A stretch of 64,000 bases of DNA, taken from Candidatus Firestoneibacteriota bacterium (GTDB lineage Bacteria; Oederibacteriota; D2-FULL-39-29; JBBTED01). The notes beneath the pieces are model-generated. The model did no database searches. It saw only the letters and a program-made list of their open reading frames with translations, and was not told the DNA's origin. Where the stretch lies: positions 68,085 to 132,084 of the forward strand of contig JBBTED010000021.1 in assembly GCA_038042445.1 (NCBI GenBank), in the 5' to 3' direction. The position numbers were made by a program, and so were the translations under genes. How positions within the stretch are numbered: position 1 is the first letter of the stretch; every line of letters starts with the position of its first letter. This document shows positions 1,480 through 48,455 of this stretch, piece by piece.

Positions 1480-2244
<765 letters not shown>

Positions 2245-2718: not shown

Positions 2719-2730
2719 AATGTATACTCC

Positions 2731-4555: not shown

Positions 4556-5657
4556 TAACAATTTTAAAATTTTCATCGAGCTTTTTGCCATCAAGCTGAA
4601 CCTCATAATCAGAAAATTGGCGCGCTGGACCCTTTGTAGTTCGCTTACAATCAACTCTTCCAAATAACTCATTTGCAGGTTTATTTCCTAAAGCCGTATT
4701 ATGTTCAAATACAATAATATTACGAGTAGACATAAGCCCCCTCGCGGCTGAATGATCATGTTCAAACATTTCTTTTAATGCTTTCCAAAAAAGATCAAGA
4801 TCATCTTTAGAAAAACCTGTTTGCGCAGCCAGATGAGCGGAAATAAACCCGTGAGAACGATAGATACCATAGGGAATGGTAAACTTGCGCCCCATAGTAC
4901 GATTATCACCACTCTGCTTTTCGGCTTCGGCCTCTGTAGCTACTGCCATACGAGTAATACTATGTTCAAGAGCAACAACCGGCTCTACAGAACGCGCAAA
5001 AGTAAATTGAATGGGTCCGCGTACTTGCCCACAATTTGGTGCAGACTTCAATGACATAACTGCCCCAAATGTTCGCACGTCAAAGAAATTTTTGCACATC
5101 CAATCGCGTCCTTTTTCTACTTCATCCCCTTTAGGTTTCCTTGATTTGGCATCCTTCATTATTTTATTAATAAAATCTTTGATTTCTTTTGATGGCTTCG
5201 ACTCTTTGATATAAGTTTTTACCGCAGTCTTATCAACATCTGCGGCAACAACAAGATATTTTTTTCCAGTATCATCTTCGTCTATTATTAAACCTTCCGG
5301 TAAACTCCATTCTTCAAGTAAATCCACTAATTTTGAATCTGATATTTCTGCACGCGATTCTTGCCCCAAGGCAATCTTCAAATCATTAAATGCGGTAACA
5401 TGCGCCCTGCCAAGAACTGCTTTTTCTTTAATATAAATATCATAACCATTTTCTGGAATACCATCTTTAAATTTTGTTAATTGCACATAATTTCTTACTT
5501 TACGTTTTAAACATACATCAGTAACCAATCCCATACCAGTTTCCGCGTCAACACGCGGTAAATTTCCGGCATCTGGATCACCATTTGGATTTCCATCCTG
5601 AACATCAAAAAACAGAACAAAATCATAACGCTTATCAATCTTTTTATTGTCTTCCAT
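4548..5657 (-). CDS. cas7: Type I-C Cascade backbone protein Cas7c (Csd2)
   Basis: 369 aa [37 protein letters not shown], the hallmark Csd2/Cas7 N-terminus. Confidence 0.93.
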
Positions 5658-5683
5658 AAAATTTCTCCTTTTTTAAAGTTAAA

Positions 5684-8595: not shown

Positions 8596-9344
8596 TTCCG
8601 CACCTCCTCGCTGTCCCATAAAGGAATAACTATTACACCATTATCTATCTTTGCCCGAAAAAATGCCGGCATTGGATTATTGATGTCTGTAAAATCCATG
8701 TCGTAAAGCATAAAACCGAGTTCTCTTGTTTCATCAATAGGCTTTTTTTCTTTTTTCGGTTCTTCAATCAGCCTGAACATACACGAAAATTCGCGGCAAC
8801 CCAAATAAGGACGATTGAAACATTGCCCTTTTCGCGCGCGGCGTTCAAACATCGCGTTATATTTTCCCGGATTTTCGTCTTTTGGATCCCCTTCAAACTC
8901 AGTTTTTTCTTCTTTATCAATCAAATACTCTGGAACAGGACTATAAGTTTTACTTCTTTTACCTAACGGTATAAATACAAGTTCCGCGTGTATTCGATAT
9001 TTAACATCCCTCAAAAAAAGCCCCGCGCGTTGTTGACGAACATCTTCGATGAAAAGTCCATCTGTTCGGTCGCTCATTACCGCGCCAACCTCATTGCGTC
9101 TTACAGATATCCATTTAATTGGATTTAACACTTCAATCTTTTTAACCTGCCATCTGATTGCCGGCTTCCAGAAAATCGCTTCAAAAATCGCCCGGCTGGC
9201 AGATGGCGTGATAACATCATAACTCACGCGTTCAACCTTCATCTCAGGCCGGGTAAAACAGGCGTAATCGCCCCAGACTTCAAGGCAAAAAGTTTTGTTA
9301 AAAAATGTAGACATATTTTCAATATCCTCCTTTCTAATAACCAT
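8592..9344 (-). CDS. cas5: Type I-C Cas5c (Cas5d) pre-crRNA processing subunit
   Basis: FCLEVWGDYACFTRPEMKVERVSYDVITPSA is the classic Cas5d N-terminal motif. An alternative start at M (9314) is possible. Confidence 0.9.
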   Translation of the reverse strand: MVIRKEDIENMSTFFNKTFCLEVWGDYACFTRPEMKVERVSYDVITPSASRAIFEAIFWKPAIRWQVKKIEVLNPIKWISVRRNEVGAVMSDRTDGLFIEDVRQQRAGLFLRDVKYRIHAELVFIPLGKRSKTYSPVPEYLIDKEEKTEFEGDPKDENPGKYNAMFERRARKGQCFNRPYLGCREFSCMFRLIEEPKKEKKPIDETRELGFMLYDMDFTDINNPMPAFFRAKIDNGVIVIPLWDSEEVRK

Positions 9345-9354
9345 ATTTTAGTAG

Positions 9355-11688
9355 TTAAAAAATAAATATTTCGCTGTCCCAATCCTTCGAATCCGGCAGA
9401 AGGCCTATACCTGGTTTGTAAAGCCCGGTTGCTTTCTGTACCCAGTAGCCGTGAATGTCTTCAATATAATCTCCACGCTTTAATTTTTCAAAAACCGGCA
9501 AAGGCACATTTACAATAAATCGCTGTAACTTTCTGATTATCCAACGTTCGGGTCCTTTGTTACGAAGATAATCGATAAAAGTCAGGCTGTTATTTCCCTT
9601 TCCTTGATACCAGACAATAATGCTTCTTTGAACTGTATCGTCTATAAGCCTTACATCCTGCGCAAAAGTGCGAAACTGGAATTTGAATTCTCCAGATTCT
9701 TTTACAAGTCTTTCTTGAAATTTTGGTTTGTCAAAATTATTTACATATCCATAAAAATTTTTAAAATATTCAGTATATAGAATTGGCTGTAAATCATGTA
9801 TAGGATAATTGCGTAAAACGCTTTTTGACGCATCCTCGCCCTTACGAAGAAGACCTGTAGGCGCTGACTTAGGCGGTTGAAAAACCACCATTTTACCCAT
9901 ACATCCCTCGTTATTTAATTTACCTTCACGATTACACCTGCCGGCCGCCTGAGCTATTGAATCCATGCCTGCTAAAGCACGATAAACAACTGGAAAATCA
10001 ATATCCACACCAGCTTCAACAAGCTGAGTGCTGACAACGCGGACAGGCTCACTATTTTTAAGTTTATGTTTAACTGACGATATAATTTCGCTTCGTTCTT
10101 CTCCGCACATATTTGCTGATAAATGTATCGTATCTTTCGGCATTAAAGCATGCAGATCGCGACAATCCTGACGTGTATTGACGATGCAAAGCACTTGTTC
10201 ATATTGCGCAAGCTGTTTCGCAACGTCAGGCCACTCCATACGTTCATCAAAATTTGGAGGTTCAATTTTAACTCTTTTGAATGACTTTGCAAGTTCCTCT
10301 GGATTGTCTATTATCTCAGTTACGTTTGACAGTCCTTCAAATACAGCCAGACCACTGCCGATTTTACCGCATAAAGCTGGCTGTGTAGCTGTACACAATA
10401 TAACCGTAACTCCAAAATATTTAACTAAACCGCGCAAAGTTGAAAGTATCGGTTCAAGATATTCCGGCGGCAACATTTGAGCTTCATCAAGAATAATAAC
10501 ACTATTAACAATATTATGTAATTTCCTGCATGACGATGTACGAAAAGCAAGCAATGATTCAAAAAGCTGGACATTAGTGGTAACTATTATAGGCACATCC
10601 CAGTTTTCAGAAGCAAGCCTGCTTTTATTATCTTCCTTATCCGGGTCAATATTACTGTGATGTTCAAGCACTGAATCCTCTCCAAATAATATATTTCCAC
10701 TTTTAATCGATTCAATAATTTTTTCTTCATCATCAGTTCCATATTTATAAACTTTTGCTGTTTGCTCAATTATACTTGTATATGGTATAGCCATAATAAT
10801 CCGCTGTTTACCATATTTTAACGCATGTTCCAAAGCAAAGGCCATTGAAGAAAGAGTTTTTCCCCCGCCAGTTGGAACAGTAAGAGAGAAAAATCCCGGA
10901 GATAATACTGCTTTTTTGCGACAAGTATCAAGTATAATGTTACGCTGTTTATTAATCTGTTCAGAAAAATCTTTTTTATTTTCCATAAACCGGTCAAAAC
11001 GTTCTTTTAAGGTTTTAATAGTTGGATAATTTCCACGAAGAGCAATTTTATTTTTATCCGATTCCATAAAAATTTCCGTATTAAGGAAATCCGCGTCTAC
11101 AAGGCATGAAAATAGCATTCGTATCCAGAGATGAAAAAATTCTTTACGATTTTCCATATCCTCCGGTTGTGATATATTAAGCGGTGTGGATTTTGGTAAA
11201 TTCTTATTAATAAACTCCTGCGATTGCTCAATTAAATTAATTTGGTCAAATTCTTTTTTATTTAAAATCCCTGAAAGCGGATCTGAATAAATACGATTAA
11301 TTAAATCACCACCTGCATTATCAGGACTCCAATCCGGCAATCCTGCATGATGACCAGCAACAATATAAGCAATAATCCGAGCAATAGCAGGATTTTTTAT
11401 GCGTGAAAATGCCAGAACTGCTCCAACGGTACTATGATTTGGACGCCATCCATAACCTTCTATATGTGCGTCTTCATCATATCCTGATGCTTTAGAAAGA
11501 TGTTTTTGCCAATCAGGAAGATATTTTCCCATATCATGCCAAAACCCCACAAGTTCAGCCCAATCTTGATTGCCAAATTCAGATGCGAATTCTTTTGCCT
11601 TTTTTGCTGTTTCATCAAGATGTTCTTTTATAGTCTGAGTTTCCCATTGTCCTAGTTCGTTTTTCTTTACATGTGCAAAATCTTTCAT
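9355..11688 (-). CDS. cas3: CRISPR-associated helicase/HD nuclease Cas3
   Basis: N-terminal HD domain (WHDMGKY...HSTVGA...AGHHAGL) followed by a DEAD/DEAH helicase (TGGGKT Walker A, DEAQ). Start taken at MKDFAHV (11688) to avoid overlap with the upstream gene; the track ORF extends to 11766. Confidence 0.9.
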   Translation of the reverse strand: MKDFAHVKKNELGQWETQTIKEHLDETAKKAKEFASEFGNQDWAELVGFWHDMGKYLPDWQKHLSKASGYDEDAHIEGYGWRPNHSTVGAVLAFSRIKNPAIARIIAYIVAGHHAGLPDWSPDNAGGDLINRIYSDPLSGILNKKEFDQINLIEQSQEFINKNLPKSTPLNISQPEDMENRKEFFHLWIRMLFSCLVDADFLNTEIFMESDKNKIALRGNYPTIKTLKERFDRFMENKKDFSEQINKQRNIILDTCRKKAVLSPGFFSLTVPTGGGKTLSSMAFALEHALKYGKQRIIMAIPYTSIIEQTAKVYKYGTDDEEKIIESIKSGNILFGEDSVLEHHSNIDPDKEDNKSRLASENWDVPIIVTTNVQLFESLLAFRTSSCRKLHNIVNSVIILDEAQMLPPEYLEPILSTLRGLVKYFGVTVILCTATQPALCGKIGSGLAVFEGLSNVTEIIDNPEELAKSFKRVKIEPPNFDERMEWPDVAKQLAQYEQVLCIVNTRQDCRDLHALMPKDTIHLSANMCGEERSEIISSVKHKLKNSEPVRVVSTQLVEAGVDIDFPVVYRALAGMDSIAQAAGRCNREGKLNNEGCMGKMVVFQPPKSAPTGLLRKGEDASKSVLRNYPIHDLQPILYTEYFKNFYGYVNNFDKPKFQERLVKESGEFKFQFRTFAQDVRLIDDTVQRSIIVWYQGKGNNSLTFIDYLRNKGPERWIIRKLQRFIVNVPLPVFEKLKRGDYIEDIHGYWVQKATGLYKPGIGLLPDSKDWDSEIFIF

Positions 11689-11699
11689 TTTAAACCTTT

Positions 11700-13070
11700 T
11701 TACCCTACGATGCCGTAGGTTCTTTGTTTGAAATCTACGGCTAATTCTTTGGCTATGTTCTTGCATTGTTCTATATCTACTGATGGTGCATCAACAGCAG
11801 TAACTACAACTTTTGGGATATGTTTTTTGCATTCCAGGATAAACTTTTTCATTTCATCATAAATAGAAACAGATTGCGCAAATTGACTCTGACAAAGTTT
11901 GTCATACTTGTCAGCAGTATCTGTATTTAAACTTATTGAAATTGTATCTATATACCTCGCAAGTTCTGGAACTATATTCCTATTATGTATCATATTTCCA
12001 TGACCATTAGTATTTATTCGCAAACGAATTCCTTTTGCCTTGAAAATTTTAGCGCTTTCCAAAATCAAATTCAAACGTATAAGAGGTTCTCCATATCCGC
12101 AATAAACTATTTCATCATAGTCATTTGGATTTTTCACCTCATTCATTATATCCTCAATTGTTGGTTCACGCTTTAATCTAAGATTATGACCTCGAACAAA
12201 ATCACTGTTATACCTCGCGCAAAATGTACAAGTATTTGAACAACGATTTGTTATATTTAAATATAATGAATTACGAATTTTATAAGATATTTTACTTGCT
12301 TCTTCAACACCAACTCTAAATAGATATTTCGCATTTATTGTTGTCCAATGTTCAACTTCAGCTAATTCTATGTTTTTAAGTTCTGCTATTTTTTGGGCTA
12401 CCTCTACAATATATGATGGCTCATTTCTCATACCTCTTTTAGATTGTGGAGGAAGATATGGAGCATCTGTTTCAAGTATTATCCTATAAATAGGTAATAG
12501 TTTTATTGTACTTTGCAATTTGACAGAATTAGGATAAGTGATTGTTCCTCCAATTGAGAAATAAAAACCCATATCCAAACATTCTTTCATCATCATCTCA
12601 TTGCCTGAAAAACAATGTAAAACTCCACCTATTTCCTGCGCATTTTCTTCTTTTAAGATTCTCAAAACATCGTTATGGGCATCTCTATCATGGACAACAA
12701 TTGGAAGTGCCAATTTATGCGCTAATTTTATCTGTGCCCTAAAATTTTTCTCCTGAGCTTCTTTTGAAGTAGTGCTTCTATAGTAATCCAACCCAGTTTC
12801 ACCAATTGCTACAACTTTTGGATTTTTGCCAAGAGCAAAAAACTTATCATAAGTTTCCTCTGACATAGTATTGGCATAATGCGGATGCACACCTATTGTT
12901 GTATAAATATTCTCGTATTTTTCAGATAAAGCAATGGATTGAATACTACTTTCAAGACAAGTGCCTATATTTACCAAATAATCTACACCTGATTCTTTTG
13001 CCCTGCGAATAACATCCTCGCGGTCAGAATCGTATTTTTTATCTTCTAAATGTATGTGTGTATCAATCAT
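11700..13070 (-). CDS. TatD-family metal-dependent DNase fused to a TatD-associated radical SAM domain
   Basis: N-terminus MIDTHIHLED...GETGLDYY...ETDAPYL is TatD hydrolase. The C-terminal half has the radical SAM motif CSNTCTFCAR and a glycine-rich SAM-binding region. Both fused in one 456-aa ORF. Confidence 0.75.
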   Translation of the reverse strand: MIDTHIHLEDKKYDSDREDVIRRAKESGVDYLVNIGTCLESSIQSIALSEKYENIYTTIGVHPHYANTMSEETYDKFFALGKNPKVVAIGETGLDYYRSTTSKEAQEKNFRAQIKLAHKLALPIVVHDRDAHNDVLRILKEENAQEIGGVLHCFSGNEMMMKECLDMGFYFSIGGTITYPNSVKLQSTIKLLPIYRIILETDAPYLPPQSKRGMRNEPSYIVEVAQKIAELKNIELAEVEHWTTINAKYLFRVGVEEASKISYKIRNSLYLNITNRCSNTCTFCARYNSDFVRGHNLRLKREPTIEDIMNEVKNPNDYDEIVYCGYGEPLIRLNLILESAKIFKAKGIRLRINTNGHGNMIHNRNIVPELARYIDTISISLNTDTADKYDKLCQSQFAQSVSIYDEMKKFILECKKHIPKVVVTAVDAPSVDIEQCKNIAKELAVDFKQRTYGIVG

Positions 13071-13072: not shown

Positions 13073-14374
13073 TTAAGATCCTGAAACAAGTTCAGGATGA
13101 CCTTCTCGGGTTATTTTTGAAATTGCGTCTGTGAAAAAATCTTCTGTTCCGAAGCCTCCTGATTTTAGCACTAATAACATCTCTTTTTCCATTGCTAAAC
13201 TTACAGGAACACCAGGTTGAATTTCTTTAAGAATTAAACTGCAAATTATTCCCAATTTTCTGCAAACAGTTACTGCTGTATCTCCACCTGCAATAATTAA
13301 TTTTGTTATATTGATTTTTTTAGACACTTTAAATACAGTTTCAGCCAAAACTTCTGATACTTTTTCGCATATAGTTTTTATATCTGCATCCAGTTCTTTA
13401 GTTTTTTCAATAATACCTTTATCTAAAGCTGAAGTTATCAAAACATTTTTACCTGACTTAATTAAATCTATTGTAGCATCAATTATTGTATTTATCTCAA
13501 TATTAAATTTGTCAGGATCAGACCATAACAGATTTGTATTTATCTGAAATACTTCTATATCATTTTTTTTTGCGAATAAAGTTTGTTTTCTACTTACTTC
13601 TGTAGCACTACCTACTACTATTAGAGTTCCTAAGGTGTCATTGCTAACTTGTTTCGGAATTTTACATATAGATTCTGAAACAAGTTCAGAATGACAAGGT
13701 AATTCTTCTGCTAATGCAGAACTACCTGCAAATACAGGCATATCAGAAACAACTTGCGCTATAATTTTCAAATCATCTTGCAACACTGTGTCTATTATTA
13801 CTATCTGAAATTTATTTTTAGCAGTTTCAATTGCTTCTTTTAGTTTTGCAACTCCATCCCTTACTATATCTAATGTTATTAAACCCACTTTTAATTGTGT
13901 TTGTGAGCTTATTATTTTTGGCAAATACGAATCTTTCATTGGATGAATTATATCTTTATTTCTTTCTGTGTTTTCTAATAATATTTCATTTATATAATGA
14001 TACCCGTTTTTAGTAGTTCTATTATTTTTAGGAAATGCAGGAACAAGAATAATAAATTTACAATTACATTCATTCATAACAGCTTCTATTTCTGAACCTA
14101 TGTTTCCTCTGAGTGTAGAATCTATTTTTTTATAAATAAATTTGCATCCCAATGATAATAATTTATTCGCAGCTTTCTTAACTTTTTCATAAGCAAGATT
14201 TTTATCATCATATCTGCTATTTGTATCAATTATTATAACATCAGTCTTATCAGTATACTCAACTATTTTGTCCATTGCTTCAAATAAAAACACTCTGGTT
14301 ATACACCCATTTTTTGCAAACATTGAACCAACATCATTTGCACCAGTTAAATCATCAGCAATAACACCAATCAT
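13073..14374 (-). CDS. Four-carbon acid sugar kinase family protein (DUF1537/OtnK-like)
   Basis: N-terminus MIGVIADDLTGANDVG matches the YgbK/OtnK family; two-domain length of 433 aa. Contains two in-frame palindromic repeat copies (see findings). Confidence 0.7.
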   Translation of the reverse strand: MIGVIADDLTGANDVGSMFAKNGCITRVFLFEAMDKIVEYTDKTDVIIIDTNSRYDDKNLAYEKVKKAANKLLSLGCKFIYKKIDSTLRGNIGSEIEAVMNECNCKFIILVPAFPKNNRTTKNGYHYINEILLENTERNKDIIHPMKDSYLPKIISSQTQLKVGLITLDIVRDGVAKLKEAIETAKNKFQIVIIDTVLQDDLKIIAQVVSDMPVFAGSSALAEELPCHSELVSESICKIPKQVSNDTLGTLIVVGSATEVSRKQTLFAKKNDIEVFQINTNLLWSDPDKFNIEINTIIDATIDLIKSGKNVLITSALDKGIIEKTKELDADIKTICEKVSEVLAETVFKVSKKINITKLIIAGGDTAVTVCRKLGIICSLILKEIQPGVPVSLAMEKEMLLVLKSGGFGTEDFFTDAISKITREGHPELVSGS

Positions 14375-14415
14375 AATTTTTTTATTGCCGATAAATCGGC
14401 AACTACATTACCTTT

Positions 14416-16875
14416 TTATTTACCTTCAAATTTTTGAATGCTTTGTATTGCAGGTGCATATTTTGGATCTATTTTTAATGTTTGTTTCCAGCAAGAAAGC
14501 GCCATATTTAAATTCCCAAGTTTTTGATATATTACTCCAAGATTATAATATCCTGCTATATACTTAGGGTTTATAGATATAACTTTTTTATACTCATTCA
14601 TTGCTTCCTGAAGTCCACCTTTTATTAAATACACATTACCTAAATTAAAATGAGCTTCTACAGAATCTGGCATAATTTCTATAGCTCTTTTATATTCCTG
14701 CATTGCCTCTTCTTTCAAACCTTTATTAAAATATGTTGTGCCTAAATTTATACGCGCCTCACCTGAATTTGAATTAAGAGTAAGAGCTCTTTTATATTCT
14801 TCTATTGCAGCATCCTGCAATTGCAAATTGTCATAAGCATTTCCCAAATTTATATGTGCCTCTACAGAATTAGGATTAATAGATAACGACTTGCAATATT
14901 CTTCCACTGCTTGCTTTAGTAAACCTTTAGTCATATATGCATTTCCAAGATTGAAATATGCGCTTGAATAATTAGTTTTCAACTCTATTGCTTTTTTATA
15001 TTCTGCTATTGCCTCTTCTATCATTCCTTTATTATCATAAGCAGTTCCAAGATTTAAATGCGCTTCAGCAGAACCGGGATTTATTCCAACTGCTTTCTTG
15101 CAACTTTCTATAGCCCCATCCGACATACCTTTATCCATAAGTAAAATTCCTAAATTACTCTGAACCCATTCATTATCATATCCTATTTCACCTGATATTC
15201 TAAAACTCTCATTTGCTTTATTTAATTCACCTTTCTTATAATAATAATCACCAAGTTGATATAAATATTGCGACACCATATTGCGTGTAATATAATCTTT
15301 CTGAATATTTTTATCATATATCCCACGAAATTTATATAGCTGCCAATAATCTTTTTTGTCCTTAAAATCACCTTTTTTCTCAACAACTCTATTCAGTAAA
15401 CCTACAGGCTCTAAAGTTATTCCTGCCATATCATGTTTTGTATTTTCAAGAGTATAATAAGCTGGCCGATTTAATTCATAAATTTTTTGCTTTTGAATCA
15501 ACACACGTTTTTTATCCTGTTCCATATCTGCCATTTTTATAAATCCATCTCCATAAATATTGGGAAATATATAACCACTATCATCATACGCTATTACATC
15601 TGGACGCATATTTTTAACCTGTAAAAGATAGGATAAAGAAAACATTGAATTATCGCCAGATGCAATAATAATTGAATTTTCAGGAAGTGCAGCCAAAAGA
15701 CAACCGCCATAATCATACGCCATATAATGTTTATGCCTATCATTTTCAAAATAGTTTAATTTAAGAGGAATCAAAGGAAAAAATAGAACAATTATAGCTG
15801 CAAAATTAAATATTCGTTTGTTTGATATTTTCTCAATTAAAAATTTAAGTCCTATACCAAACCATATTGCAAAAATAATATAAGATGCGGTAAAAAATTC
15901 AGAAACTGACATAACCGATGCAGCGGTAATTTTGAAATTCAAGAGGAAAATAAAACCTACACTTAAAATTAAAAATAGTGAAACAGTCAAAATAAAATAT
16001 TTTTTGTGTGTTTTATAAAGACAAATTATACCTGCTATAGAAATCAGACCCAAAAATGGTGAAAATTCTTTTCCAATAAGCTTTATGTATTCCCATATCT
16101 GTTGAAAAAATAAGCTGATTGTTCTTGAATCTTTAGAAAGTTTACCATATTGCCTACGTCGGACATGGTCTAAAAATCTTTCAAGATTATCTGGATTTCC
16201 CCAATTTACTTTTGGAGAAATAGATGCTCTTATTGGAAGATACAAATAAATCAGAAGCCCTAAAAGAAATAATACTGAAATCAATAATAAATTTTTACGT
16301 TCTTTTAATATTTGAGGTCTACACAATATTACCCAAACTACAATAACAGGTCCTAACAACATCATTGTATTGTGATTTCCCAAGCTTATGGCATAGAGAA
16401 AAGAAATAAGACAAAGGATATTGTTTTTAGATGTCTCATACCACTGAACAAGCAAATAAATTAAAATAGAAACAAAAAAAGTATTTAACGGATAAACTTC
16501 CGCTATTACTGCTTGCGACCAAAGTGTATTTGAAAAATTAAGACATAAACTTGCACATACAGCCGGTAAAACTGTAGTCATTAAACCTACTTTGCTAAAC
16601 TTCAAAATTTTTAAAAGAGCAAGATAAATAAACAAACCAGACATTGAACTTAGAAATGCATTCATAAGATTAACTCTAAAAGCAATATCACCCAGTGGAA
16701 TAAATGTAAAAAGTTTTCCAATAATACAAAATAATGGATAACCAGGAGGATGAGGAATACCAAGATTATACACCGCAGATATTAACTCACCTGCATCACC
16801 AACATATACAGAAGGACATATTGTCCTCAAATATACAAAAAACGAAACTAAAACAACAAAAATTCCACCTAACAT
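14416..16875 (-). CDS. DUF2723 (GT-C-like) polytopic membrane protein with C-terminal TPR repeats, paralog 1
   Basis: N-terminus ...FVYLRTICPSVYVGDAGELI...GIPHPPGYPLF is DUF2723-like. There are many TM segments, and the C-terminal third is canonical TPR repeats (AEAHLNLGTAYDNKG etc.). Confidence 0.7.
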   Translation of the reverse strand: MLGGIFVVLVSFFVYLRTICPSVYVGDAGELISAVYNLGIPHPPGYPLFCIIGKLFTFIPLGDIAFRVNLMNAFLSSMSGLFIYLALLKILKFSKVGLMTTVLPAVCASLCLNFSNTLWSQAVIAEVYPLNTFFVSILIYLLVQWYETSKNNILCLISFLYAISLGNHNTMMLLGPVIVVWVILCRPQILKERKNLLLISVLFLLGLLIYLYLPIRASISPKVNWGNPDNLERFLDHVRRRQYGKLSKDSRTISLFFQQIWEYIKLIGKEFSPFLGLISIAGIICLYKTHKKYFILTVSLFLILSVGFIFLLNFKITAASVMSVSEFFTASYIIFAIWFGIGLKFLIEKISNKRIFNFAAIIVLFFPLIPLKLNYFENDRHKHYMAYDYGGCLLAALPENSIIIASGDNSMFSLSYLLQVKNMRPDVIAYDDSGYIFPNIYGDGFIKMADMEQDKKRVLIQKQKIYELNRPAYYTLENTKHDMAGITLEPVGLLNRVVEKKGDFKDKKDYWQLYKFRGIYDKNIQKDYITRNMVSQYLYQLGDYYYKKGELNKANESFRISGEIGYDNEWVQSNLGILLMDKGMSDGAIESCKKAVGINPGSAEAHLNLGTAYDNKGMIEEAIAEYKKAIELKTNYSSAYFNLGNAYMTKGLLKQAVEEYCKSLSINPNSVEAHINLGNAYDNLQLQDAAIEEYKRALTLNSNSGEARINLGTTYFNKGLKEEAMQEYKRAIEIMPDSVEAHFNLGNVYLIKGGLQEAMNEYKKVISINPKYIAGYYNLGVIYQKLGNLNMALSCWKQTLKIDPKYAPAIQSIQKFEGK

Positions 16876-17045
16876 AATTTTTCTTTCCTAAATTTCCACT
16901 TTCAAAACTGTGTCATAATGAGAATATTACGCGTTTTGTCATGCTGAATTCATTTCAGCATCTAATAAATTTGTTTTTAGACCCTGAAACAAGTTCAGGG
17001 TGACAAAAAACCGCTTATGACACAGTCTATTTCGTAGAAATGACA

Positions 17046-19490
17046 TTATTTCAACATTGCTTTTGCTTTAATTATATTTTCTTTTGCGTCTTTATGGCTT
17101 GGATTAATTTGTAGCGCTTTCTCCCAGCAGGAAATTGCTGTTTTTAAATCGCCTTTTCGTCCATAGGCGCTTCCCAAATTATTATATGCATCTGGATTAT
17201 TTGAATCAAGTTTAATTGTTATACTAAACTCCCTGATAGCATCTTCAACTTTTCCCTTAGAATAATATATTATACCCAAATTACTATGCGCCTTTTTATG
17301 GTTTTGATTAAGCCCAAGGACACGTATATATTTCTCTTCCGCCAAATCTAATTTCCCCTGTTCCAAATACATATCTCCAATATTGCAATGTGCATCTGCC
17401 TGTTCAGGATTTAATTTAATTGCTACATTATACTCATCATACGCTTCTTTTCTCTGTCCTGTTTTATAATAAACATTCCCTAAATTATTATGCGCATCTG
17501 CATAATCTTGTTCAAGTCCTATTGCCTTTCTAAAATTAACCATTGCTCTATCAAATTCTTCTTTTTCTAAATACGCAACTCCAAGATTATTATACGCAAT
17601 TGCATTTTTAGGATTTGCTGCAACTATTCTTTCGTAGTCTTTTATAGCTTCGTCTTTATTTCCTCTTAAAACTGACAGTGAAGCTAAATTACTTTGCATC
17701 CATTCAATATTACGAGCAAGTTCCATAGCTTTCCTATAATTTTCATTGGATTTATCATTTTCTTTAGTGTAATGGTAATATTCACCTAAACCAAAATAAT
17801 ATCTTGCCACCATTTCTCGCGCCAAAAAATCTGACAATATTTCTGAATCATTTATGCCATTTAATTCATAATTTTTCCAGTAATTTTTATTTTTTACACT
17901 ATCCTCTTCCCAAGGTCTAATAACCCTGTATAAAACACCTGCAGGCATTGTAATTAAACCCTGTATTTTTTGCATATTACTTCCTAAAGTAAAAAATATT
18001 GGCTCTTTTCTTGAATTAATTATTTCTTTCTGCTTATCTCTCATTTTTTTATCACGTTCAGATTTATCCATAAAAAGCAAACCCTCACCATAAATATTTG
18101 TAAAAATACAACCGAAGTCATCATAAATAGTAACATCATTTCGGACACCTTCTGCCAATCTAAGGTATGAAAGTAGAAATACAGGATTATCACCTCTTGA
18201 AAATAATATGGAATTTGGTTCTAAAGTCCGCAAAATATTATTTGCAAAATTATATGCCACATAATTTTTACTCTTATCATTAACCGAATAATTATGTTTA
18301 AAAGACAGTATCAACAGAACAAAAAGAATACCCATTAAACCAATCCGTATAAATTTATAGTTTGTCTTCGAAATATCCCACAAATATTTGATTCCAAATG
18401 TTATCCATATTAAAATAATAACGTATGATGGAATAAAAAATATCTGAACCAAATAAAGATCCTTTTCTATTATTTTAAAGTTCAAAAGCAATATAAAACC
18501 TATACTCAAAAAAAGAAATGCGATTACAGAAAAAATCAAATATTTTTTGTCATAAACTATCTTCAGAAAACCAAAAATAATAAATACAAGCAAAAAAGGA
18601 TTAAACTGATCAAATAAAAAATTTGCATAAGCAAAGCATTGTTTTAAAAATAACGCTATAGACCTTGGCTCTTTAGCCAAAACCCCATATTGTTTCCGCA
18701 AAACGTGAAATATAAAATTATTAAATGAATCAGGATTCCCCCAATCCAATAACGGATTTGCCAAAGAACGAATTGGCAGATACATTTGTATACATATACC
18801 TAACAAAAAAAATCCGATTATTTTATAAATCCCCCTCGACCCATCTTTTAGATGGGTGCCCCGCCCTTTTTCAAAGGGGGAACTACTATTTTCTTTATTA
18901 TTAAGTAAAAGATACAGCACAAGAAGAGGCGCAAATAACGTCATTGTATGATGGGCAGCTAAACTAACACCATAGACTAATGAAAGCAAATAAAGATATT
19001 TATCCCCATCTACATTTCTTACTAAACTATTCTTCCATAACATTAAAATGTACAATTCAAGAATAACAAAAAATGTAGTTATTATATATACTTCAGAAAC
19101 CACTATTTGCGACCAAAAACTATTTGAAAACGCAAAATATAACGCTATTACTCCTGAAATAAAAACAATAGTATTGTCTATTGAAATTTTTAAAATTATT
19201 GTTAATGTTAGAATCAATAATTTATAGAATATAAAAACCGATACTGCTGCAAAAAATGCATTCATCAAATTGACTTGAAATGCAATACTGCCAAATGGCA
19301 AAAAAGTAAATATTTTTCCGAATATACAAAACAGTGGGTAGCCAGGAGGATGAGGAATACCGAGTGTATAAGCGCCAACAACAAGCTCACCATTATCACC
19401 AACAAAAACTGTCGGGCATATAGTTTTTAAAAACACGAAAAACGAGATGAGAAATATAAGAATTCCAAATATAAGAATTTTTGTTTTCAT
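17046..19490 (-). CDS. DUF2723 (GT-C-like) membrane protein with C-terminal TPR repeats, paralog 2
   Basis: 814 aa, collinear with the upstream paralog (TICPTVFVGDNGELV...GIPHPPGYPLF). Carries an extra 13-aa in-frame insert (~25 aa replacing ~12) encoded by a GC-rich palindrome (18831-18880). Confidence 0.7.
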   Translation of the reverse strand: MKTKILIFGILIFLISFFVFLKTICPTVFVGDNGELVVGAYTLGIPHPPGYPLFCIFGKIFTFLPFGSIAFQVNLMNAFFAAVSVFIFYKLLILTLTIILKISIDNTIVFISGVIALYFAFSNSFWSQIVVSEVYIITTFFVILELYILMLWKNSLVRNVDGDKYLYLLSLVYGVSLAAHHTMTLFAPLLVLYLLLNNKENSSSPFEKGRGTHLKDGSRGIYKIIGFFLLGICIQMYLPIRSLANPLLDWGNPDSFNNFIFHVLRKQYGVLAKEPRSIALFLKQCFAYANFLFDQFNPFLLVFIIFGFLKIVYDKKYLIFSVIAFLFLSIGFILLLNFKIIEKDLYLVQIFFIPSYVIILIWITFGIKYLWDISKTNYKFIRIGLMGILFVLLILSFKHNYSVNDKSKNYVAYNFANNILRTLEPNSILFSRGDNPVFLLSYLRLAEGVRNDVTIYDDFGCIFTNIYGEGLLFMDKSERDKKMRDKQKEIINSRKEPIFFTLGSNMQKIQGLITMPAGVLYRVIRPWEEDSVKNKNYWKNYELNGINDSEILSDFLAREMVARYYFGLGEYYHYTKENDKSNENYRKAMELARNIEWMQSNLASLSVLRGNKDEAIKDYERIVAANPKNAIAYNNLGVAYLEKEEFDRAMVNFRKAIGLEQDYADAHNNLGNVYYKTGQRKEAYDEYNVAIKLNPEQADAHCNIGDMYLEQGKLDLAEEKYIRVLGLNQNHKKAHSNLGIIYYSKGKVEDAIREFSITIKLDSNNPDAYNNLGSAYGRKGDLKTAISCWEKALQINPSHKDAKENIIKAKAMLK

Positions 19491-19596
19491 TTTTTATCAG
19501 AAACGGACAACATGTTTAACATCGTAGTTGCCGATTTATCGGCATTATTCAAAACAATGACCACAACGCCCATAAATGGGCAACTACATTGTCTAA

Positions 19597-20850
19597 TTAG
19601 GCAGTCTTTTCTTCGCGGTTTTTTTCAAATACTAAAACAGGTTCTTCTCTATTCGTAATAGTACGTTCAGTAATAACACACTCTTTAACATTAGTTAAAG
19701 ATGGCAATTCATACATTGCATTTAACATTACATCTTCAATTATAAAACGCAAACCTCTTGCTCCTGTTTTCCTTTTTAATGCCTCTTTAGCAACTACAGC
19801 TAATGCTTCATCAGTAATTTTAAGCTTAACGTTTTCCATAGCAAAAAACTTCTTATATTGTTTAATTAATGCATTTTTCGGTTCTACCAATATTTTAATT
19901 AAAGCTTTCTCATCTAAATTATGTAAACCTGCCATTATAGGAAGTCTGCCTACAAATTCCGGTATAAATCCAAAATTAAGTAAATCTTCAGGCTGAACAT
20001 TCATTAACATTTCTTTTTGATTTTTTTCTGACTTTGATTTGAGTTTTGCTGAAAATCCAAAACTTCCCTGACCTAATCTTTTTTCTACAATATTATCAAG
20101 ACCAACAAATGCACCACCACAAATAAACAAAATATTGGTTGTATTTACTTTTATATATTCCTGTTGTGGATGTTTTCGCCCACCTTGTGGAGGAACATTT
20201 GCTATTGTTCCTTCTAATATTTTTAGTAATGCCTGCTGCACTCCTTCTCCTGAAACATCCCGGGTAATTGAAGGATTTTCCGATTTTCTTGTAATCTTAT
20301 CTATTTCATCTATATAAATTATGCCACGCTGGGCATATTCAACATTATAATTTGCATTCTGAAGCAAACGCAAAATTATATTTTCCACATCTTCACCAAC
20401 ATATCCCGCTTCTGTAAGACTTGTAGCATCTACAATTGCAAATGGAACATTTAATAATTTTGCAAGTGTTTGTGCAAGCAAGGTCTTTCCTGTACCTGTA
20501 GGACCAATTAAAAGTATATTGCTTTTCTGTAGCTCAACATCTGATTTATTAGCATTTGCGAAAATTCTTTTATAATGATTATGAACAGCTACAGCTAATA
20601 TTTTTTTGGCATGTTCCTGATCAATACAATATTGATCAAGAAATTCTTTTATTTCTTTTGGCTTAGGTATATGTCCAAACTTGGAATGTTCTTCAGCTAT
20701 TAAATCTTCTGCCATTATTTCATTGCATAACAAAATACATTCATTGCAGACATACACTGAAGGGCCTGCTACAAGACGCTTCACTTCCATCTGGGTTTTG
20801 CCACAGAAAGAACATCTAATTAAACCTTTAACATTCGCTGAACTTACCAT
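19597..20850 (-). CDS. clpX: ATP-dependent Clp protease ATP-binding subunit ClpX
   Basis: N-terminal zinc-binding CSFCGK...CNEC, Walker [12 protein letters not shown]-like loop region; 417 aa. Confidence 0.95.
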
Positions 20851-24414: not shown

Positions 24415-24473
24415 ATTTAAGTTAGTTAAAACGCCGATAAATCGGCAACTACATAATTCGTTTTGCGTTTTAT

Positions 24474-32193: not shown

Positions 32194-32217
32194 CTTTTAT
32201 TTGCTTCTCCTTTCTAT

Positions 32218-44979: not shown

Positions 44980-46350
44980 TTAAGACAAATCTTTAGATAT
45001 TGAATATTGCTGGATTTTCCTATAAAGAGTATCTCTGGATATTCTTAATATTTCAGCAGCTTTTAATTTATTTCCATTTGTAGATTTAAGAACTGAAATT
45101 ATAGCAGATTTTTCTGATTCCTCAAGGGAACATACTTTTACAGTATCAGAATTATTAGTTTCTAATACTCGCATATGCGAAGGTAAATCCTGTTCAACAA
45201 AAATATTTTTATTCACTTTAATTGCGAATAAACCTTCTATTAAATTTTCCAATTCACGAACATTGCCTGGCCAGTTGTATTTTACTAAAACATCCAATGC
45301 TTCACGTTCAAAACCCTCTACTTTCTTTTTGTATTTATCATTAAATTTATCAATAAAATATTTCACAAGAAGTGGAATATCTTCTTTTCTTTCTCTAAGT
45401 AGAGGAATTGTGATAGTAATAGTGCTTAATCTATAGTACAGTTCCTTTCTTATGCCACTTTTATTTCCATCAGAAATTATATTATGCGATGATGCAGCAA
45501 GAATTCTTACATTTACAGCTATTTCTTTTATATCACCTACAGGCCTTATTTTTTTGTCCTGAAGGACTCTTAAAAGTTTTGCCTGACTTTCCTTTGGCAT
45601 TTCACTAATTTCATCAAGCAATATTGTCCCTCCTTCACTTGCTCTGAATATACCTATATAATCCGAATTCGCACCTGTAAAACTTCCTTTTTTATAACCA
45701 AAAAGTTCACTCTCAACAAGATTTGAAGGAATACCTCCACAATTTATCGGCATAAATGTATTATTTTTTCTATTACTTAAATTATGTATTGCTCTTGCAA
45801 CAAGTTCTTTTCCAACACCAGTTTCTCCAAGTATCAAAACAGGACAATCTACAGATGCCGATGCCCTTATTCTATCAAAAACATTTTTCATTAATTTACT
45901 TTCTCCAATAATATTTTCGATGCTATATTTCGAATTAAGCTGGCTCTGTAAATGAGCAACATCAGTCTCAAGTTTCATTATTTTAAATAAGCGATTAATA
46001 CAAATCATAATCTGATCTTTAGTAAAAGGTTTAATTATATAATCAGAAGCTCCCATTTTTATTGCTGTAACTGCATCCTGAATTGTTCCATAACCAGTCA
46101 TCATAATAACTTCAATAGCAGGACTATGTTCTTTGATTTTTTTCAAAAGCTCAAATCCATTCATTTGACCCATTCTAATATCGGTTATAATAATTTTAAC
46201 GTCCTGCTCAATCTTGATTTTCTCAATAGCTTCCTCACCAGAATATGCCTTAACAGTAGAAAATCCCTGTCTTAAAAAAAGTTTTGCGCAGGTCTCTACC
46301 ATACCCTTATCATCATCAACAATTAAAATTTTTATCATATCATGTATCAT
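44980..46350 (-). CDS. Sigma-54-dependent response regulator (NtrC family), paralog 2
   Basis: REC, AAA+ sigma-54 activator (GETGVGKE...ESELFGYKKGSFTGA) and HTH domains; 456 aa. Confidence 0.9.
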   Translation of the reverse strand: MIHDMIKILIVDDDKGMVETCAKLFLRQGFSTVKAYSGEEAIEKIKIEQDVKIIITDIRMGQMNGFELLKKIKEHSPAIEVIMMTGYGTIQDAVTAIKMGASDYIIKPFTKDQIMICINRLFKIMKLETDVAHLQSQLNSKYSIENIIGESKLMKNVFDRIRASASVDCPVLILGETGVGKELVARAIHNLSNRKNNTFMPINCGGIPSNLVESELFGYKKGSFTGANSDYIGIFRASEGGTILLDEISEMPKESQAKLLRVLQDKKIRPVGDIKEIAVNVRILAASSHNIISDGNKSGIRKELYYRLSTITITIPLLRERKEDIPLLVKYFIDKFNDKYKKKVEGFEREALDVLVKYNWPGNVRELENLIEGLFAIKVNKNIFVEQDLPSHMRVLETNNSDTVKVCSLEESEKSAIISVLKSTNGNKLKAAEILRISRDTLYRKIQQYSISKDLS

Positions 46351-46403
46351 GCTGAATTTATTTCAGCATCTCTTTTAGACCCTGAAACAAGTTCAGGGTG
46401 ACA
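46348..46403. repeat. Family A two-hairpin palindromic repeat, intergenic copy 2
   Basis: CATGCTGAATTTATTTCAGCATC ... GACCCTGAAACAAGTTCAGGGTGACA. Near-identical to 16938-17005. Confidence 0.75.
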
Positions 46404-46423
46404 ATTCAAAGCTTGTCCTGAAT

Positions 46424-47809
46424 TCACTTCAATATTGGAAAACTTATTGTAAAAGTTGTATATTTATTTACTTCACTTGCAACAGTAATTGTTCCTCTGA
46501 GTTCTTCTATTAGTTTCCTACATATCGCTAAACCAAGACCTGTTCCATTCTTTGCTTCTTTTGTAGTAAAAAATGGCTCAAATATTTCGTTGAGGTTTTC
46601 TTTAGATATACCAGAACCATCATCTGTAAAATCAACCTCTATAAAATTATTATCAATAACTTTTGTTTTCACACTAATAGTTCCACCCTTTTCAATAGCA
46701 TCAAAGGAATTAGAAAAAAGGTTTAAAAAAATCTGTTCAAGTTGATCACAAGATGCAAGCACTTTCACTTTATCAGTTTCAGCAACGTCTATTTTCAAAG
46801 AGACATCATTCTTTCTAAAAATGTGGCTAAGTATTTCTATTATATCAGTTAAAACTTTATTGAAGTTACATTCCTGCAATTTTTCTTTTGCTTTAGTAGA
46901 ACGAGAAAAACCCAACAAATGTTCAACTATTTCTTTGCACCGTTGTAATTGATGATTTATAAATTTTAATTCTCCAAGATAACTTTTGTTTTTTATATCT
47001 TCCATCAACATTTCTGCACGTAACATTGCAGAAGCTAATGGAGTTTTCATTTGATGTGCGATTCCAGCCGCAATTTGTCCAACCAATACCATTTTATCAA
47101 CCCTATTTATTTTTTCTTCCTGAAGCCTTACAATTTCTTCCTGTGAATTCTCCAAAGCATTTAACATTGAATTGAATTGTTTTGAAATAACTCCAAATTC
47201 ATCATTTCTGGATACAGATAAACGTTTTTTTGTAACACCCTTTTCTACCTGCTTCATCGCATCCAATAATACTTTTATAGGCGTATTTACTATAAAAAAT
47301 ATTGCTAAGCCAATCAAAAGTGAAGTGATTATTACAATAGCAAAAAAAGAGTATATATGTATTTTTAACTCTTTTTTTACACGTAATAAAGCAGGAGTAA
47401 TAGATTTAGAAATACGTATATATCCTAATACAGGTTTTGTATTTTTATGACATTTAAAACACTCTTTTTTGTTAAAAATTGGAACAAAATAAACAAAATT
47501 ATCCCTTAAATCTATATTTACACCCTTTGCTATTATCTTAACCTCTTGATTGCTATTCAAAATCGTAATTTCATTAAAACCAATATTTAATACGAGTTTT
47601 TTTATAAATTTTTCTATTTCACCAATTTTTTTATCCAACATTGAATTTTCAATCTGTTGATGAATTGTTTTACAAAAAAGATTTAGCCGACGTGTTTCAT
47701 CATCAATAACCCATTCATTTGTGTGAGATATCTCTACATATAAATATAACCCAAGCAATACAAACAGAATAAATGTTATTGCAATAATTAATTTAAAAGC
47801 TATTTTCAT
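46424..47809 (-). CDS. Sensor histidine kinase with periplasmic CxxCH heme-binding motif (intact paralog)
   Basis: TM, periplasmic domain with NKKECFKCHKNTKP, second TM, HAMP, H-box GIAHQMKTPL, HATPase_c (GTGLGLAICRKL); 461 aa. Confidence 0.85.
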   Translation of the reverse strand: MKIAFKLIIAITFILFVLLGLYLYVEISHTNEWVIDDETRRLNLFCKTIHQQIENSMLDKKIGEIEKFIKKLVLNIGFNEITILNSNQEVKIIAKGVNIDLRDNFVYFVPIFNKKECFKCHKNTKPVLGYIRISKSITPALLRVKKELKIHIYSFFAIVIITSLLIGLAIFFIVNTPIKVLLDAMKQVEKGVTKKRLSVSRNDEFGVISKQFNSMLNALENSQEEIVRLQEEKINRVDKMVLVGQIAAGIAHQMKTPLASAMLRAEMLMEDIKNKSYLGELKFINHQLQRCKEIVEHLLGFSRSTKAKEKLQECNFNKVLTDIIEILSHIFRKNDVSLKIDVAETDKVKVLASCDQLEQIFLNLFSNSFDAIEKGGTISVKTKVIDNNFIEVDFTDDGSGISKENLNEIFEPFFTTKEAKNGTGLGLAICRKLIEELRGTITVASEVNKYTTFTISFPILK

Positions 47810-48394: not shown

Positions 48395-48455
48395 TGTCAT
48401 CCCGAACTTGTTTCGGGATCTCAAAAAGAGATGCTGAACCAAGTTCAGCATGACA
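48395..48455. repeat. Family A-related two-hairpin repeat (variant, stems with compensatory changes)
   Basis: TGTCATCCCGAACTTGTTTCGGGATC ... GATGCTGAACCAAGTTCAGCATGACA. Sits between ilvB and ilvN. Confidence 0.6.

What the first reader, a model, noticed from the sequence alone, without database searches (positions are those of the whole stretch)
16938..17005. Family A composite two-hairpin element in intergenic regions (16938-17005, 46348-46403, variant 48395-48455)
Near-identical about 65-nt units carry two stem-loops (GCTGAA-TTYAT-TTCAGC and ACCCTGAA-ACAAG-TTCAGGGT) followed by TGACA. One unit lies between the tandem DUF2723 paralogs. One lies between the heme-sensor kinase and its response regulator. 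A third, with compensatory stem changes, lies between ilvB and ilvN. Maintenance of pairing despite sequence change argues for selection on RNA or DNA structure. They may be REP/MITE-like elements acting as intra-operon terminators/attenuators or mRNA stabilisers.
Basis: seen in the sequence. Interest (0 to 1): 0.5.

Follow-up and report, generated by a model that had tools for sequence, protein, structure and literature searches.

The report
Known hairpin repeat family (CGTC-type REP)
The two-hairpin elements are real copies of an already described, very widespread family of small palindromic DNA repeats. In other genomes the same repeats bracket the gene of a small nuclease that cuts single-stranded DNA, so they are better read as DNA-level repeats than as purpose-built RNA terminators.

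Summary
The window carries about 25-nt units with this layout: an unpaired TGTC tag, an 8-bp stem (A-T first, GAA/TTC last), a 5-nt loop (mostly CTTGT), and a CTN tail. Pairs of units lie in inverted orientation with the tags outward.

There are four doublets (13635-13696, 16937-17005, 46347-46403, 48395-48455), one singleton (13078-13102) and one decayed composite (57466-57538). Three of these six lie in frame inside genes (a sugar kinase and lpxB).

Stem changes are compensatory and almost only Watson-Crick. Orientation relative to genes is random.

The units fit the CGTC-2 REP family of Di Nocera et al. 2013. The exact 25-nt pattern hit the scan's 120-locus limit, in genomes of many phyla.

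In other genomes the same units bracket single-domain GIY-YIG genes. These genes are homologous to ones flanked by the canonical Neisseria NTS, the target of Ssn single-stranded-DNA nucleases (Chenal et al. 2025).

No such gene lies in the 82 kb seen of this Candidatus Firestonebacteria MAG. The published SRM pattern does not match these units.

Verdict: new member of a known kind. The REP-like reading is supported. The terminator/attenuator reading is not supported as the primary role.

The parts
16937..16961 (+). Unit: TGTC tag, stem ATGCTGAA/TTCAGCAT, loop TTCAT, tail CTA. Left half of the head-to-head doublet between the two TMEM260-like/TPR paralogs.
16981..17005 (-). Unit: TGTC tag, stem ACCCTGAA/TTCAGGGT, loop CTTGT, tail CTA. 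Right half of the same doublet. The doublet starts 40 nt after the upstream stop codon (17046) and ends 62 nt before the downstream start (16875).
46347..46371 (+). Unit with a degenerate tag (TATC), stem ATGCTGAA/TTCAGCAT, loop TTTAT. It ends 8 nt upstream of the response-regulator start codon (46338).
46379..46403 (-). Unit identical to 16981-17005, 20 nt after the histidine-kinase stop codon (46424).
46404..46436 (-). Decayed remnant of the second hairpin type (TTGAA-GTGAA-TTCAGGA-CAAGCTTTGA), abutting the doublet and overlapping the kinase stop codon.
   Evidence: Compared by eye with L126:2645-2680 and window 57486-57538.
48395..48419 (+). Unit: TGTC, stem ATCCCGAA/TTCGGGAT, loop CTTGT. 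Part of the doublet between ilvB (stop at 48497) and ilvN (start at 48361).
48431..48455 (-). Unit: TGTC, stem ATGCTGAA(C)/(G)TTCAGCAT, loop CTTGG. On the transcribed strand it is followed by CTCTTTTTGA, which passes a lax terminator-like scan.
13635..13696 (.). Head-to-head doublet: a degenerate unit at 13635-13660(+) and an intact unit at 13672-13696(-). It is translated in frame as CHSELVSESICKIPKQVSND in the linker between the SBD_N and NBD_C domains of a four-carbon acid sugar kinase.
   Evidence: (D15)
13078..13102 (-). Singleton unit (tag GGTC) that supplies the last nine codons (GHPELVSGS) of the same kinase ORF. The stop codon follows immediately.
57466..57538 (-). Decayed composite (GGTC-ATCCCTGAA-ATAAA-TTCAGGG-CAAGCTCTGA...GGATCTC) inside lpxB. 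It corresponds to a 21-residue insertion (EINSGQALSDSEGSQNEKLKS) that is absent from 10 of 11 aligned homologs; P0257 has an unrelated 5-residue insertion there.
   Evidence: (Pfam match split at residue 217)

Best explanation
Family A is a set of CGTC/TGTC-tagged repetitive palindromes of the type Di Nocera et al. (2013) called CGTC-2. In this Candidatus Firestonebacteria MAG they occur as head-to-head heterodimers, singletons and decayed copies.

They are DNA-level elements. Each unit forms its own 8-bp/5-nt hairpin when the DNA is single-stranded. Together with the unpaired 5' (C/T)GTC tag, that hairpin is the recognition module of an Ssn-family single-domain GIY-YIG endonuclease. For the related Neisseria NTS, this enzyme binds the hairpin only as ssDNA and cuts a few nucleotides upstream.

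In other genomes the gene for such a nuclease is bracketed by these same units, tags outward. The gene-less doublets in the window therefore look like the two ends of that cassette without its gene, much as REPINs relate to RAYT genes.

Copies have landed in intergenic spacers and, because several reading frames of the unit are open, in frame in tolerant parts of proteins. Effects on transcripts are by-products.

Shown here: the anatomy, the covariation, the dispersal, the in-frame copies, and the association of this unit type with GIY-YIG genes elsewhere.
Inferred: that an Ssn homolog exists and acts on these copies in this genome, and how copies spread.
For: Family fit:
- Tag TGTC in 7 of 9 units; 8-bp stem with A-T first in 10 of 10 units and T-A second in 8 of 10; 5-nt loop; all four doublets have tags outward and unlike stems.
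- This matches the published features: CGTC changed to TGTC in many repeats, 8-bp stems with A/T in the first two positions, 5-nt loops, head-to-head dimers predominant, heterodimers in CGTC-2, intragenic copies.
- The paper's supplement lists a Sulfurovum CGTC-2 intragenic peptide, RHSELVSGS. The window encodes GHPELVSGS and CHSELVSES from the same unit.

DNA-level signal:
- At the unconstrained stem position, 164 of 171 copies are Watson-Crick (CG 90, GC 56, TA 18) and only 2 are G:T.
- Covariation keeps each small hairpin perfect, not the long doublet hairpin.
- There is no orientation bias relative to genes.

Nuclease link:
- GIY-YIG genes lie next to units in L091 (units on both sides), L012 and L040 (unit 10 nt upstream), and 1.8 kb from a unit in L076.
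- Of 80 metagenome loci encoding relatives, 72 have a (C/T)GTC-tagged hairpin within 250 bp and 47 have one on both sides. Density is 3.08 per kb near the gene versus 0.19 per kb farther away.
- For family-A-type units alone the densities are 0.55 versus 0.044 per kb. The nearest upstream unit is on the + strand in 47 of 59 loci and the nearest downstream unit on the - strand in 47 of 60, that is, tags outward.
- Proteins flanked by A-type units are on average 54% identical (up to 71%) to those flanked by NTS-like hairpins, some matching the NTS consensus exactly.
- SsnA biochemistry and the SRM-ssn-SRM architecture come from PMC11893778.
Against: - No GIY-YIG/Ssn homolog lies in the 82 kb of the source genome that could be read: the window plus L126 and L128. 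None named for this organism appears among the top 120 of more than 7,900 family members.
- The published SRM search pattern matches none of the window units.
- Only 10 of the 80 Ssn-like loci carry A-type units. The rest carry NTS-like ones.
- No Ssn enzyme with this specificity has been tested.
- Adjacency could reflect a landing preference of the repeats rather than recognition.
- How a nuclease alone would copy the repeats is unknown.
- Di Nocera et al. found no transposase linked to CGTC repeats.
Confidence: 0.65

Rival explanations
1. RNA-level regulators: the hairpins act in the transcript as intra-operon terminators or attenuators, or as 3' stabilisers of upstream mRNA, as shown for some E. 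coli REPs.
For: All copies lie in co-directional gene strings and are transcribed. As RNA the doublets fold well, -21 to -31 kcal/mol with z-scores of -5 to -6.5. Two units on the transcribed strand pass a lax terminator scan: 13098-13078 and 48451-48431.
Against: - Three copies are inside ORFs, in frame.
- A stop between ilvB and ilvN, or between the kinase and its regulator, would uncouple partners.
- Orientation relative to the upstream gene is random: 18 versus 19.
- There is no excess of G:U-type pairs.
- The conserved unpaired tag and tail, and the cross-phylum identity of the sequence, are not explained.
- Rfam finds no RNA family here.
Confidence: 0.15
2. Relics without a partner: the copies descend from an Ssn-linked (or other) repeat family, but this genome has lost the enzyme. 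The repeats are now inert and decaying.
For: Several copies are degenerate: 13635-13660, the tag of 46347, the remnant at 46404-46436, and the lpxB insert. No Ssn gene lies in 82 kb. Chenal et al. report that 19% of genomes with more than 200 SRMs lack a homolog.
Against: Seven units still have perfect 8-bp stems with compensatory differences between copies. That is unlikely after long neutral decay. Also, 82 kb is a small part of a genome.
Confidence: 0.2
3. Classical REP/REPIN system mobilised by a RAYT (IS200/IS605-type Y1 transposase).
For: The layout is an unpaired tetranucleotide plus hairpin, with inverted doublets able to form one long hairpin. The same window carries separate GTAG-tagged hairpin families (D12, D16), so a RAYT may exist in the genome.
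Against: The tag is TGTC/CGTC, not GTAG. Di Nocera et al. found no tyrosine transposase gene flanked by CGTC repeats in any species. In the loci examined here, the gene flanked by these units is a GIY-YIG gene.
Confidence: 0.07
4. Ordinary MITE moved by a DDE transposase, with the two units acting as terminal inverted repeats.
For: The doublets are 57-69 bp with inverted ends.
Against: No target-site duplication flanks any of the four doublets. Singletons and tandem groups are common. Selection acts on each unit's own hairpin.
Confidence: 0.03

Closest known systems
CGTC-tagged REPs, family CGTC-2 (Di Nocera, De Gregorio & Rocco 2013, BMC Genomics 14:522)
   Same: An unpaired (C/T)GTC tag; an 8-bp stem starting with A-T and T-A; a 5-nt loop; a short unpaired tail; head-to-head heterodimers; copies inside genes. 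The listed Sulfurovum CGTC-2 peptide RHSELVSGS is the translation of the same unit.
   Different: The tail here is CTN rather than the CCA consensus. The host phylum (Candidatus Firestonebacteria) is not among the five phyla listed. The family consensus sits in a figure I could not read, so the assignment to CGTC-2 rather than another CGTC family rests on the text features and on one peptide.
NTS/dRS3 of Neisseria and Ssn-related motifs (SRM), with SsnA GIY-YIG ssDNA nucleases (Chenal et al. 2025, Nat Commun 16:2388)
   Same: The same tag (CGTCAT...), an ...ATC closing end, hairpin size, hundreds of dispersed copies, and bracketing of a roughly 100-aa single-domain GIY-YIG gene in inverted orientation. 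The proteins next to family A units are up to 71% identical to those next to NTS-like hairpins (some match the NTS consensus exactly).
   Different: The stem and loop sequence differs (xxCTGAA-CTTGT-TTCAGxx versus TTCCCGCG-MAV-CGCGGGAA). The published SRM pattern does not match. No biochemical test of this specificity exists. No ssn gene has been seen yet in this genome.
REP/BIME and REPIN elements with RAYT transposases (GTAG-tagged)
   Same: A tetranucleotide tag plus hairpin, inverted doublets, mostly intergenic location just after genes, and a cognate gene bracketed by the repeats.
   Different: A different tag, and a different partner protein class (GIY-YIG nuclease rather than HUH Y1 transposase).
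Rickettsia palindromic elements (RPE-4 and RPE-6, which are CGTC-4 and CGTC-1 according to Di Nocera et al.)
   Same: Palindromic repeats that sit in frame inside conserved protein genes and add roughly 10-30 residues.
   Different: Different stem sequences and host. Most copies here are intergenic.

Membership tests
CGTC-tagged REP superfamily / CGTC-2 | [quoted passage not shown] | tested here: met
   TGTC in 7 of 9 window units, GGTC in 1, TATC in 1. Both CGTC and TGTC occur in other genomes.
CGTC-tagged REP superfamily / CGTC-2 | 8-bp stem with complementary A/T at the first and second positions; 5-nt loop | tested here: met
   Pair 1 is A-T in 10 of 10 units. Pair 2 is T-A in 8 and C-G in 2. 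The helix has 8 pairs and 97.5% of cells are paired. Loops are CTTGT, TTCAT, TTTAT or CTTGG.
CGTC-tagged REP superfamily / CGTC-2 | 3-nt unpaired tail, consensus CCA | tested here: inconclusive
   The window tails are CTA, CTC or CTT. CCA(T/G) tails are seen on the same units in other genomes.
CGTC-tagged REP superfamily / CGTC-2 | Predominantly head-to-head dimers (tags outside); heterodimers in CGTC-2 | tested here: met
   All four window doublets, and the one in L126, have tags outside and unlike stems.
CGTC-tagged REP superfamily / CGTC-2 | Match to the CGTC-2 consensus sequence (Figure 2 of the paper) | tested here: inconclusive
   The figure is not held. Indirect support: the listed CGTC-2 intragenic peptide RHSELVSGS equals the translation of the window unit.
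Ssn-related motif (SRM) / Ssn system | Match to the SRM pattern HGTCWYN(0-2)YYVSBRHN(0-5)WNVSBRGN(0-2)RNCYNB | tested here: not met
   There are 0 matches in the window and 0 of 6 units match, while the NTS control matches. Most units share only the HGTCWY tag; the tail RNCYNB fits in only 2 of 6.
Ssn-related motif (SRM) / Ssn system | The repeats bracket a single-domain GIY-YIG (cd10448-type) gene | tested here: met
   Met for this unit type in other genomes: L091, L012, L040, L129, L130, L140, L177, L184, L190, L194, L202, L203, L206. cd10448 itself could not be scored. Homology to NTS-flanked proteins is shown.
Ssn-related motif (SRM) / Ssn system | An ssn homolog is present in the same genome | not testable with these tools
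   None lies in the window, L126 or L128 (82 kb). The rest of GCA_964358285.1 could not be read.
Ssn-related motif (SRM) / Ssn system | Sequence-specific cleavage of the hairpin-bearing strand as ssDNA only | not testable with these tools
   This needs biochemistry.
REP/REPIN with RAYT | GTAG tag 5' of the hairpin, and a Y1 transposase gene flanked by the repeats | tested here: not met
   The tag is TGTC. The flanked gene found elsewhere is a GIY-YIG gene. The literature reports no RAYT association for CGTC repeats.
MITE | Target-site duplication flanking terminal inverted repeats | tested here: not met
   No consistent direct repeat flanks the four doublets.
Intrinsic terminator | GC-rich hairpin followed directly by a U-run on the transcribed strand | tested here: not met
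   Only 2 of 9 units pass a lax scan on the - strand. The stems have 3-4 G-C pairs, and the other units are followed by CTAAAA or CTATAT.

The most novel reading that the evidence does not exclude
The CTTGT-loop (CGTC-2) units form a separate specificity class of the Ssn system that the published SRM pattern misses. The gene-less head-to-head doublets would then be non-autonomous derivatives of a mobile unit-ssn-unit cassette. That would be a REPIN/RAYT-like partnership run by a GIY-YIG ssDNA nuclease, shared by horizontal transfer across more than ten phyla, including CPR bacteria and Candidatus Firestonebacteria.
Probability: 0.35. Interest if true: 0.55.

Novelty: new member of a known kind. 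Interest (0 to 1): 0.3.

Why it matters
For this window the result is mainly a clean-up. The elements are dispersed selfish or domesticated DNA repeats, not a locus-specific regulatory device.

They explain several odd annotation features:
- false N-terminal extensions of ilvN and the response regulator;
- a nine-codon tail on a kinase;
- a 21-residue insert in LpxB.

More broadly, Di Nocera et al. found no partner enzyme for CGTC repeats. The data here link the CGTC-2 type to Ssn-like GIY-YIG genes. They also show that the published SRM search pattern would miss this type, which would widen the known range of the Ssn/hairpin partnership if confirmed.

Tried and rejected
- Rfam on the whole window found only two tRNAs.
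- A search for target-site duplications found none.
- The published SRM pattern gave no match.
- I tried to find empty orthologous sites in close relatives. It failed because the best homologs of the sugar kinase and LpxB are only 41-45% identical. Other assemblies of the same population are 99.9-100% identical, with no presence/absence difference.
- I tried to find the Ssn gene of the source genome:
  - there is none in the window or in the flanks recovered on either side (about 9.7 kb in L126, 7.9 kb in L128);
  - none is recognisable among the top 120 hits of a family with more than 7,900 hits.
- A full-text literature search for the unit sequence found nothing relevant. The supplements of Chenal et al. 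are not held.
- The kinase linker copy is not a simple length-adding insertion. Homologs have a linker of the same length, so I do not count it as proof of insertion. The lpxB copy is a clear 21-residue insertion.
- The long-hairpin (REPIN-like) fold of the doublets is predicted. I rejected it as the selected structure because the compensatory changes preserve the small hairpins and leave mismatches in the long one.

Full report
**What is there**

Read on both strands, the repeating unit is about 25 nt. It has an unpaired tag TGTC, an 8-bp stem whose first pair is A-T and whose last three pairs are GAA/TTC, a 5-nt loop (CTTGT in most units; TTCAT, TTTAT or CTTGG in others), and a short tail CTN.

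A 'composite' is two such units in inverted orientation with the tags outward.

A degenerate pattern for the unit finds 6 matches in the window and none in 100 dinucleotide shuffles.
- a doublet at 13635-13696;
- a singleton at 13078-13102;
- a decayed composite at 57466-57538;
- a remnant at 46404-46436.

One more doublet lies just outside the window, between ruvA and ruvB (L126:2645-2727).

**Context**

All long ORFs of the window are on the minus strand. The doublets lie at these positions:
- between two TMEM260-like (former DUF2723) plus TPR paralogs;
- between a HAMP-HisKA-HATPase kinase and its sigma-54 response regulator, ending 8 nt before the regulator's ATG;
- between ilvB and ilvN.

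The mechanical ORFs of ilvN and the regulator run into the elements, which gives false N-terminal extensions. Nothing supports 'heme sensor'.

The source is a Hainich groundwater MAG that NCBI names Candidatus Firestonebacteria. Other assemblies of the same population are 99.9-100% identical and show no presence/absence difference.

**Copies inside genes**

ORF 13073-14374 is a four-carbon acid sugar kinase. Its SBD_N and NBD_C domains are intact.
- The doublet at 13635-13696 is translated in frame as CHSELVSESICKIPKQVSND, exactly in the inter-domain linker.
- The singleton supplies the last nine codons, GHPELVSGS, just before the stop.
- Homologs have a linker of the same length. This copy therefore occupies the linker rather than lengthening it.

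In lpxB the Pfam match is split at residue 217. An alignment with 11 homologs shows a 21-residue insertion, EINSGQALSDSEGSQNEKLKS; none of the 11 has it, although P0257 has an unrelated 5-residue insertion at the same place. Its DNA matches the first 36 nt of the L126 composite and then decays.

The forward unit is open in two reading frames. The reverse unit is open in at most one, depending on the tail, and a second reverse frame runs to a stop in the tag. That helps explain why such insertions are tolerated.

**Structure and covariation**

On ten units from this genome:
- 97.5% of cells pair;
- three of the eight pairs change on both sides (UA/CG; CG/GC/UA; UA/CG);
- no shuffle of 500 reaches the covariation score;
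- pairing collapses to 25-51% when partners are slid by 1-3 columns.

In 171 copies from other genomes, the stem position left free by my search pattern is Watson-Crick in 164 (CG 90, GC 56, TA 18). Over the three variable positions, G:T wobble (4) is no more common than C:A (6).

The doublets can also fold into one long hairpin. However, the two units of a doublet have unlike stems, so the compensatory changes preserve the small hairpins and leave mismatches in the long one.

In 120 loci from other genomes, singletons lying within 150 nt after an ORF end are in the same orientation as the ORF 18 times and opposite 19 times (mechanical ORFs). Watson-Crick-only covariation, indifference to orientation, and a conserved unpaired tag all point to selection on DNA rather than on the transcript.

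**Distribution**

The record titles span Bacteroidota, Sphingomonadales and other Proteobacteria, Treponema, Melainabacteria, several CPR groups, Nitrospirota, Ignavibacteria, Elusimicrobia, Firmicutes and one Nanoarchaeota MAG.

**What it is called**

Di Nocera et al. (2013, PMC3733652) sorted short palindromic repeats into GTAG- and CGTC-tagged superfamilies. For CGTC repeats they describe:
- a tag often changed to TGTC;
- stems of 8 bp (families 1 and 2) with complementary A/T in the first two positions;
- loops of 5 nt in families 2-4;
- a 3-nt tail;
- predominance of head-to-head dimers, defined as tags outside;
- heterodimers in CGTC-2;
- intragenic copies;
- no linked transposase.

Their supplement lists, for Sulfurovum CGTC-2, the intragenic peptide RHSELVSGS, which is the translation of the window's unit. 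They equate Neisseria dRS3 with CGTC-1, and Rickettsia RPE-6 and RPE-4 with CGTC-1 and CGTC-4.

The window units meet every textual criterion except the tail (CTN here, CCA in their consensus). CCA tails are seen on the same units elsewhere. I could not read their consensus figure.

**The likely partner**

Chenal et al. (2025, PMC11893778) showed the following:
- The Neisseria NTS (CGTCATTCCCGCGMAVGCGGGAATCYRG, which contains dRS3) is bound, as ssDNA only, by SsnA, a roughly 100-aa single-domain GIY-YIG nuclease. SsnA cuts a few nucleotides upstream of the hairpin.
- ssn genes across phyla are bracketed by related hairpins, which they call SRMs.
- In N. meningitidis the pair modulates natural transformation.

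I tested whether family A units share this association.
- Among the 120 pattern-selected loci, four carry a GIY-YIG gene. In L091 it is bracketed by units on both sides. In L040 a unit ends 10 nt before the start codon. In L012 a doublet follows the gene. In L076 the nearest unit is 1.8 kb away.
- I then fetched 80 metagenome loci that encode relatives of these proteins. Of these, 72 have a (C/T)GTC-tagged hairpin within 250 bp and 47 have one on both sides. The density is 3.08 per kb near the gene against 0.19 per kb farther out.
- Ten of the 80 loci carry family-A-type units. For these units alone the densities are 0.55 against 0.044 per kb.
- The nearest upstream unit is on the gene's strand in 47 of 59 loci. 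The nearest downstream unit is on the opposite strand in 47 of 60. In both cases the tags point outward.
- Proteins next to A-type units are on average 54% identical, and up to 71%, to proteins next to NTS-like hairpins, some of which match the NTS consensus exactly. Their nearest neighbours tend to be other A-type proteins.

**Limits of that inference**

- The published SRM pattern matches none of the window units, because it encodes the NTS-like stem. Most units share the tag; only 2 of 6 also fit the tail.
- No Ssn-like gene lies in the 82 kb of this genome that I could read. The family is too large to pick out this MAG's member from a top-120 list.
- No enzyme of this specificity has been assayed.
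- How the repeats are copied is unknown.

I therefore file the elements as members of the CGTC REP family. I say that they most likely work like SRMs. I do not claim formal SRM membership.

**Rivals**

- RNA terminator, attenuator or stabiliser. Two units on the transcribed strand pass a lax hairpin-plus-T scan, including the one after ilvB, and side effects on mRNA are plausible. The family-level features argue against this as the selected role: in-frame copies, random orientation, no wobble excess, and a conserved tag.
- RAYT-driven REP. This does not fit the tag or the flanking gene.
- DDE-type MITE. This does not fit the absence of target-site duplications.
- Relic repeats in a genome that has lost the nuclease. 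This remains possible. It is weakened by seven units with perfect stems that differ compensatorily between copies.

**Verdict**

The thing is an already described kind of repeat in a newly sampled lineage. The modest extra point is that the CGTC-2 type, for which Di Nocera et al. found no linked enzyme, brackets Ssn-like GIY-YIG genes and escapes the published SRM search pattern.

Noticed in passing
window 1475-2249: CRISPR array with 12 copies of GTTTCAATCCACGCGCCCACGCGGGGCGCGAC at a 66-67 nt period. The adjacent minus-strand ORFs (2428-11766) are probably cas genes.
   Followed up: no
window 32165-32200, 39792-39827, 44241-44276 and 14387-14418, 19568-19599, 24433-24464: Two further hairpin repeat families. 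On the minus strand they read GTAGTCGCAGGCTTTAGCCTGCGG and GTAGTTGCCGATTTATCGGC, that is, classic GTAG-tagged REP-like units, seemingly just after genes (checked only for 14387-14418). A RAYT gene was not looked for.
   Followed up: partly
window 16907-16918 and 17015-17026: A perfect 12-nt inverted repeat, ACTGTGTCATAA / TTATGACACAGT, encloses the doublet at 16937-17005. It may be an older decayed doublet or a palindromic target, as Di Nocera et al. describe for some CGTC dimers.
   Followed up: partly
L126:2645-2680; window 57486-57538; window 46404-46436: A second hairpin type, CCCTGAA-ATRAA-TTCAGGG-YAAGCTCTGA, is fused to family A units at three places. It looks like a tandem or nested variant of the unit.
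   Followed up: partly
window 47876-48451 and 44980-46350: The mechanical ORFs of ilvN and the sigma-54 response regulator start inside the repeats. The gene calls on record start at 48361 and 46338. Repeat-derived N-terminal extensions of this kind are a likely annotation artefact.
   Followed up: yes
window 39868-41277 versus 44980-46350 (and neighbours); 14416-16875 versus 17046-19490; L126:9043-11455: Paralogous gene sets: two kinase plus sigma-54 regulator pairs, and at least four TMEM260-like/TPR genes in tandem.
   Followed up: no
L128:2992-7710 (just beyond the window's right end): A phage-type integrase with AlpA/HTH genes next to the wbqC-like gene. This is probably an integrated mobile element.
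   Followed up: no
whole window: The closest database relatives of LpxB and of the sugar kinase are only 41-45% identical, among 5.8 billion proteins. This lineage is very poorly sampled.
   Followed up: partly
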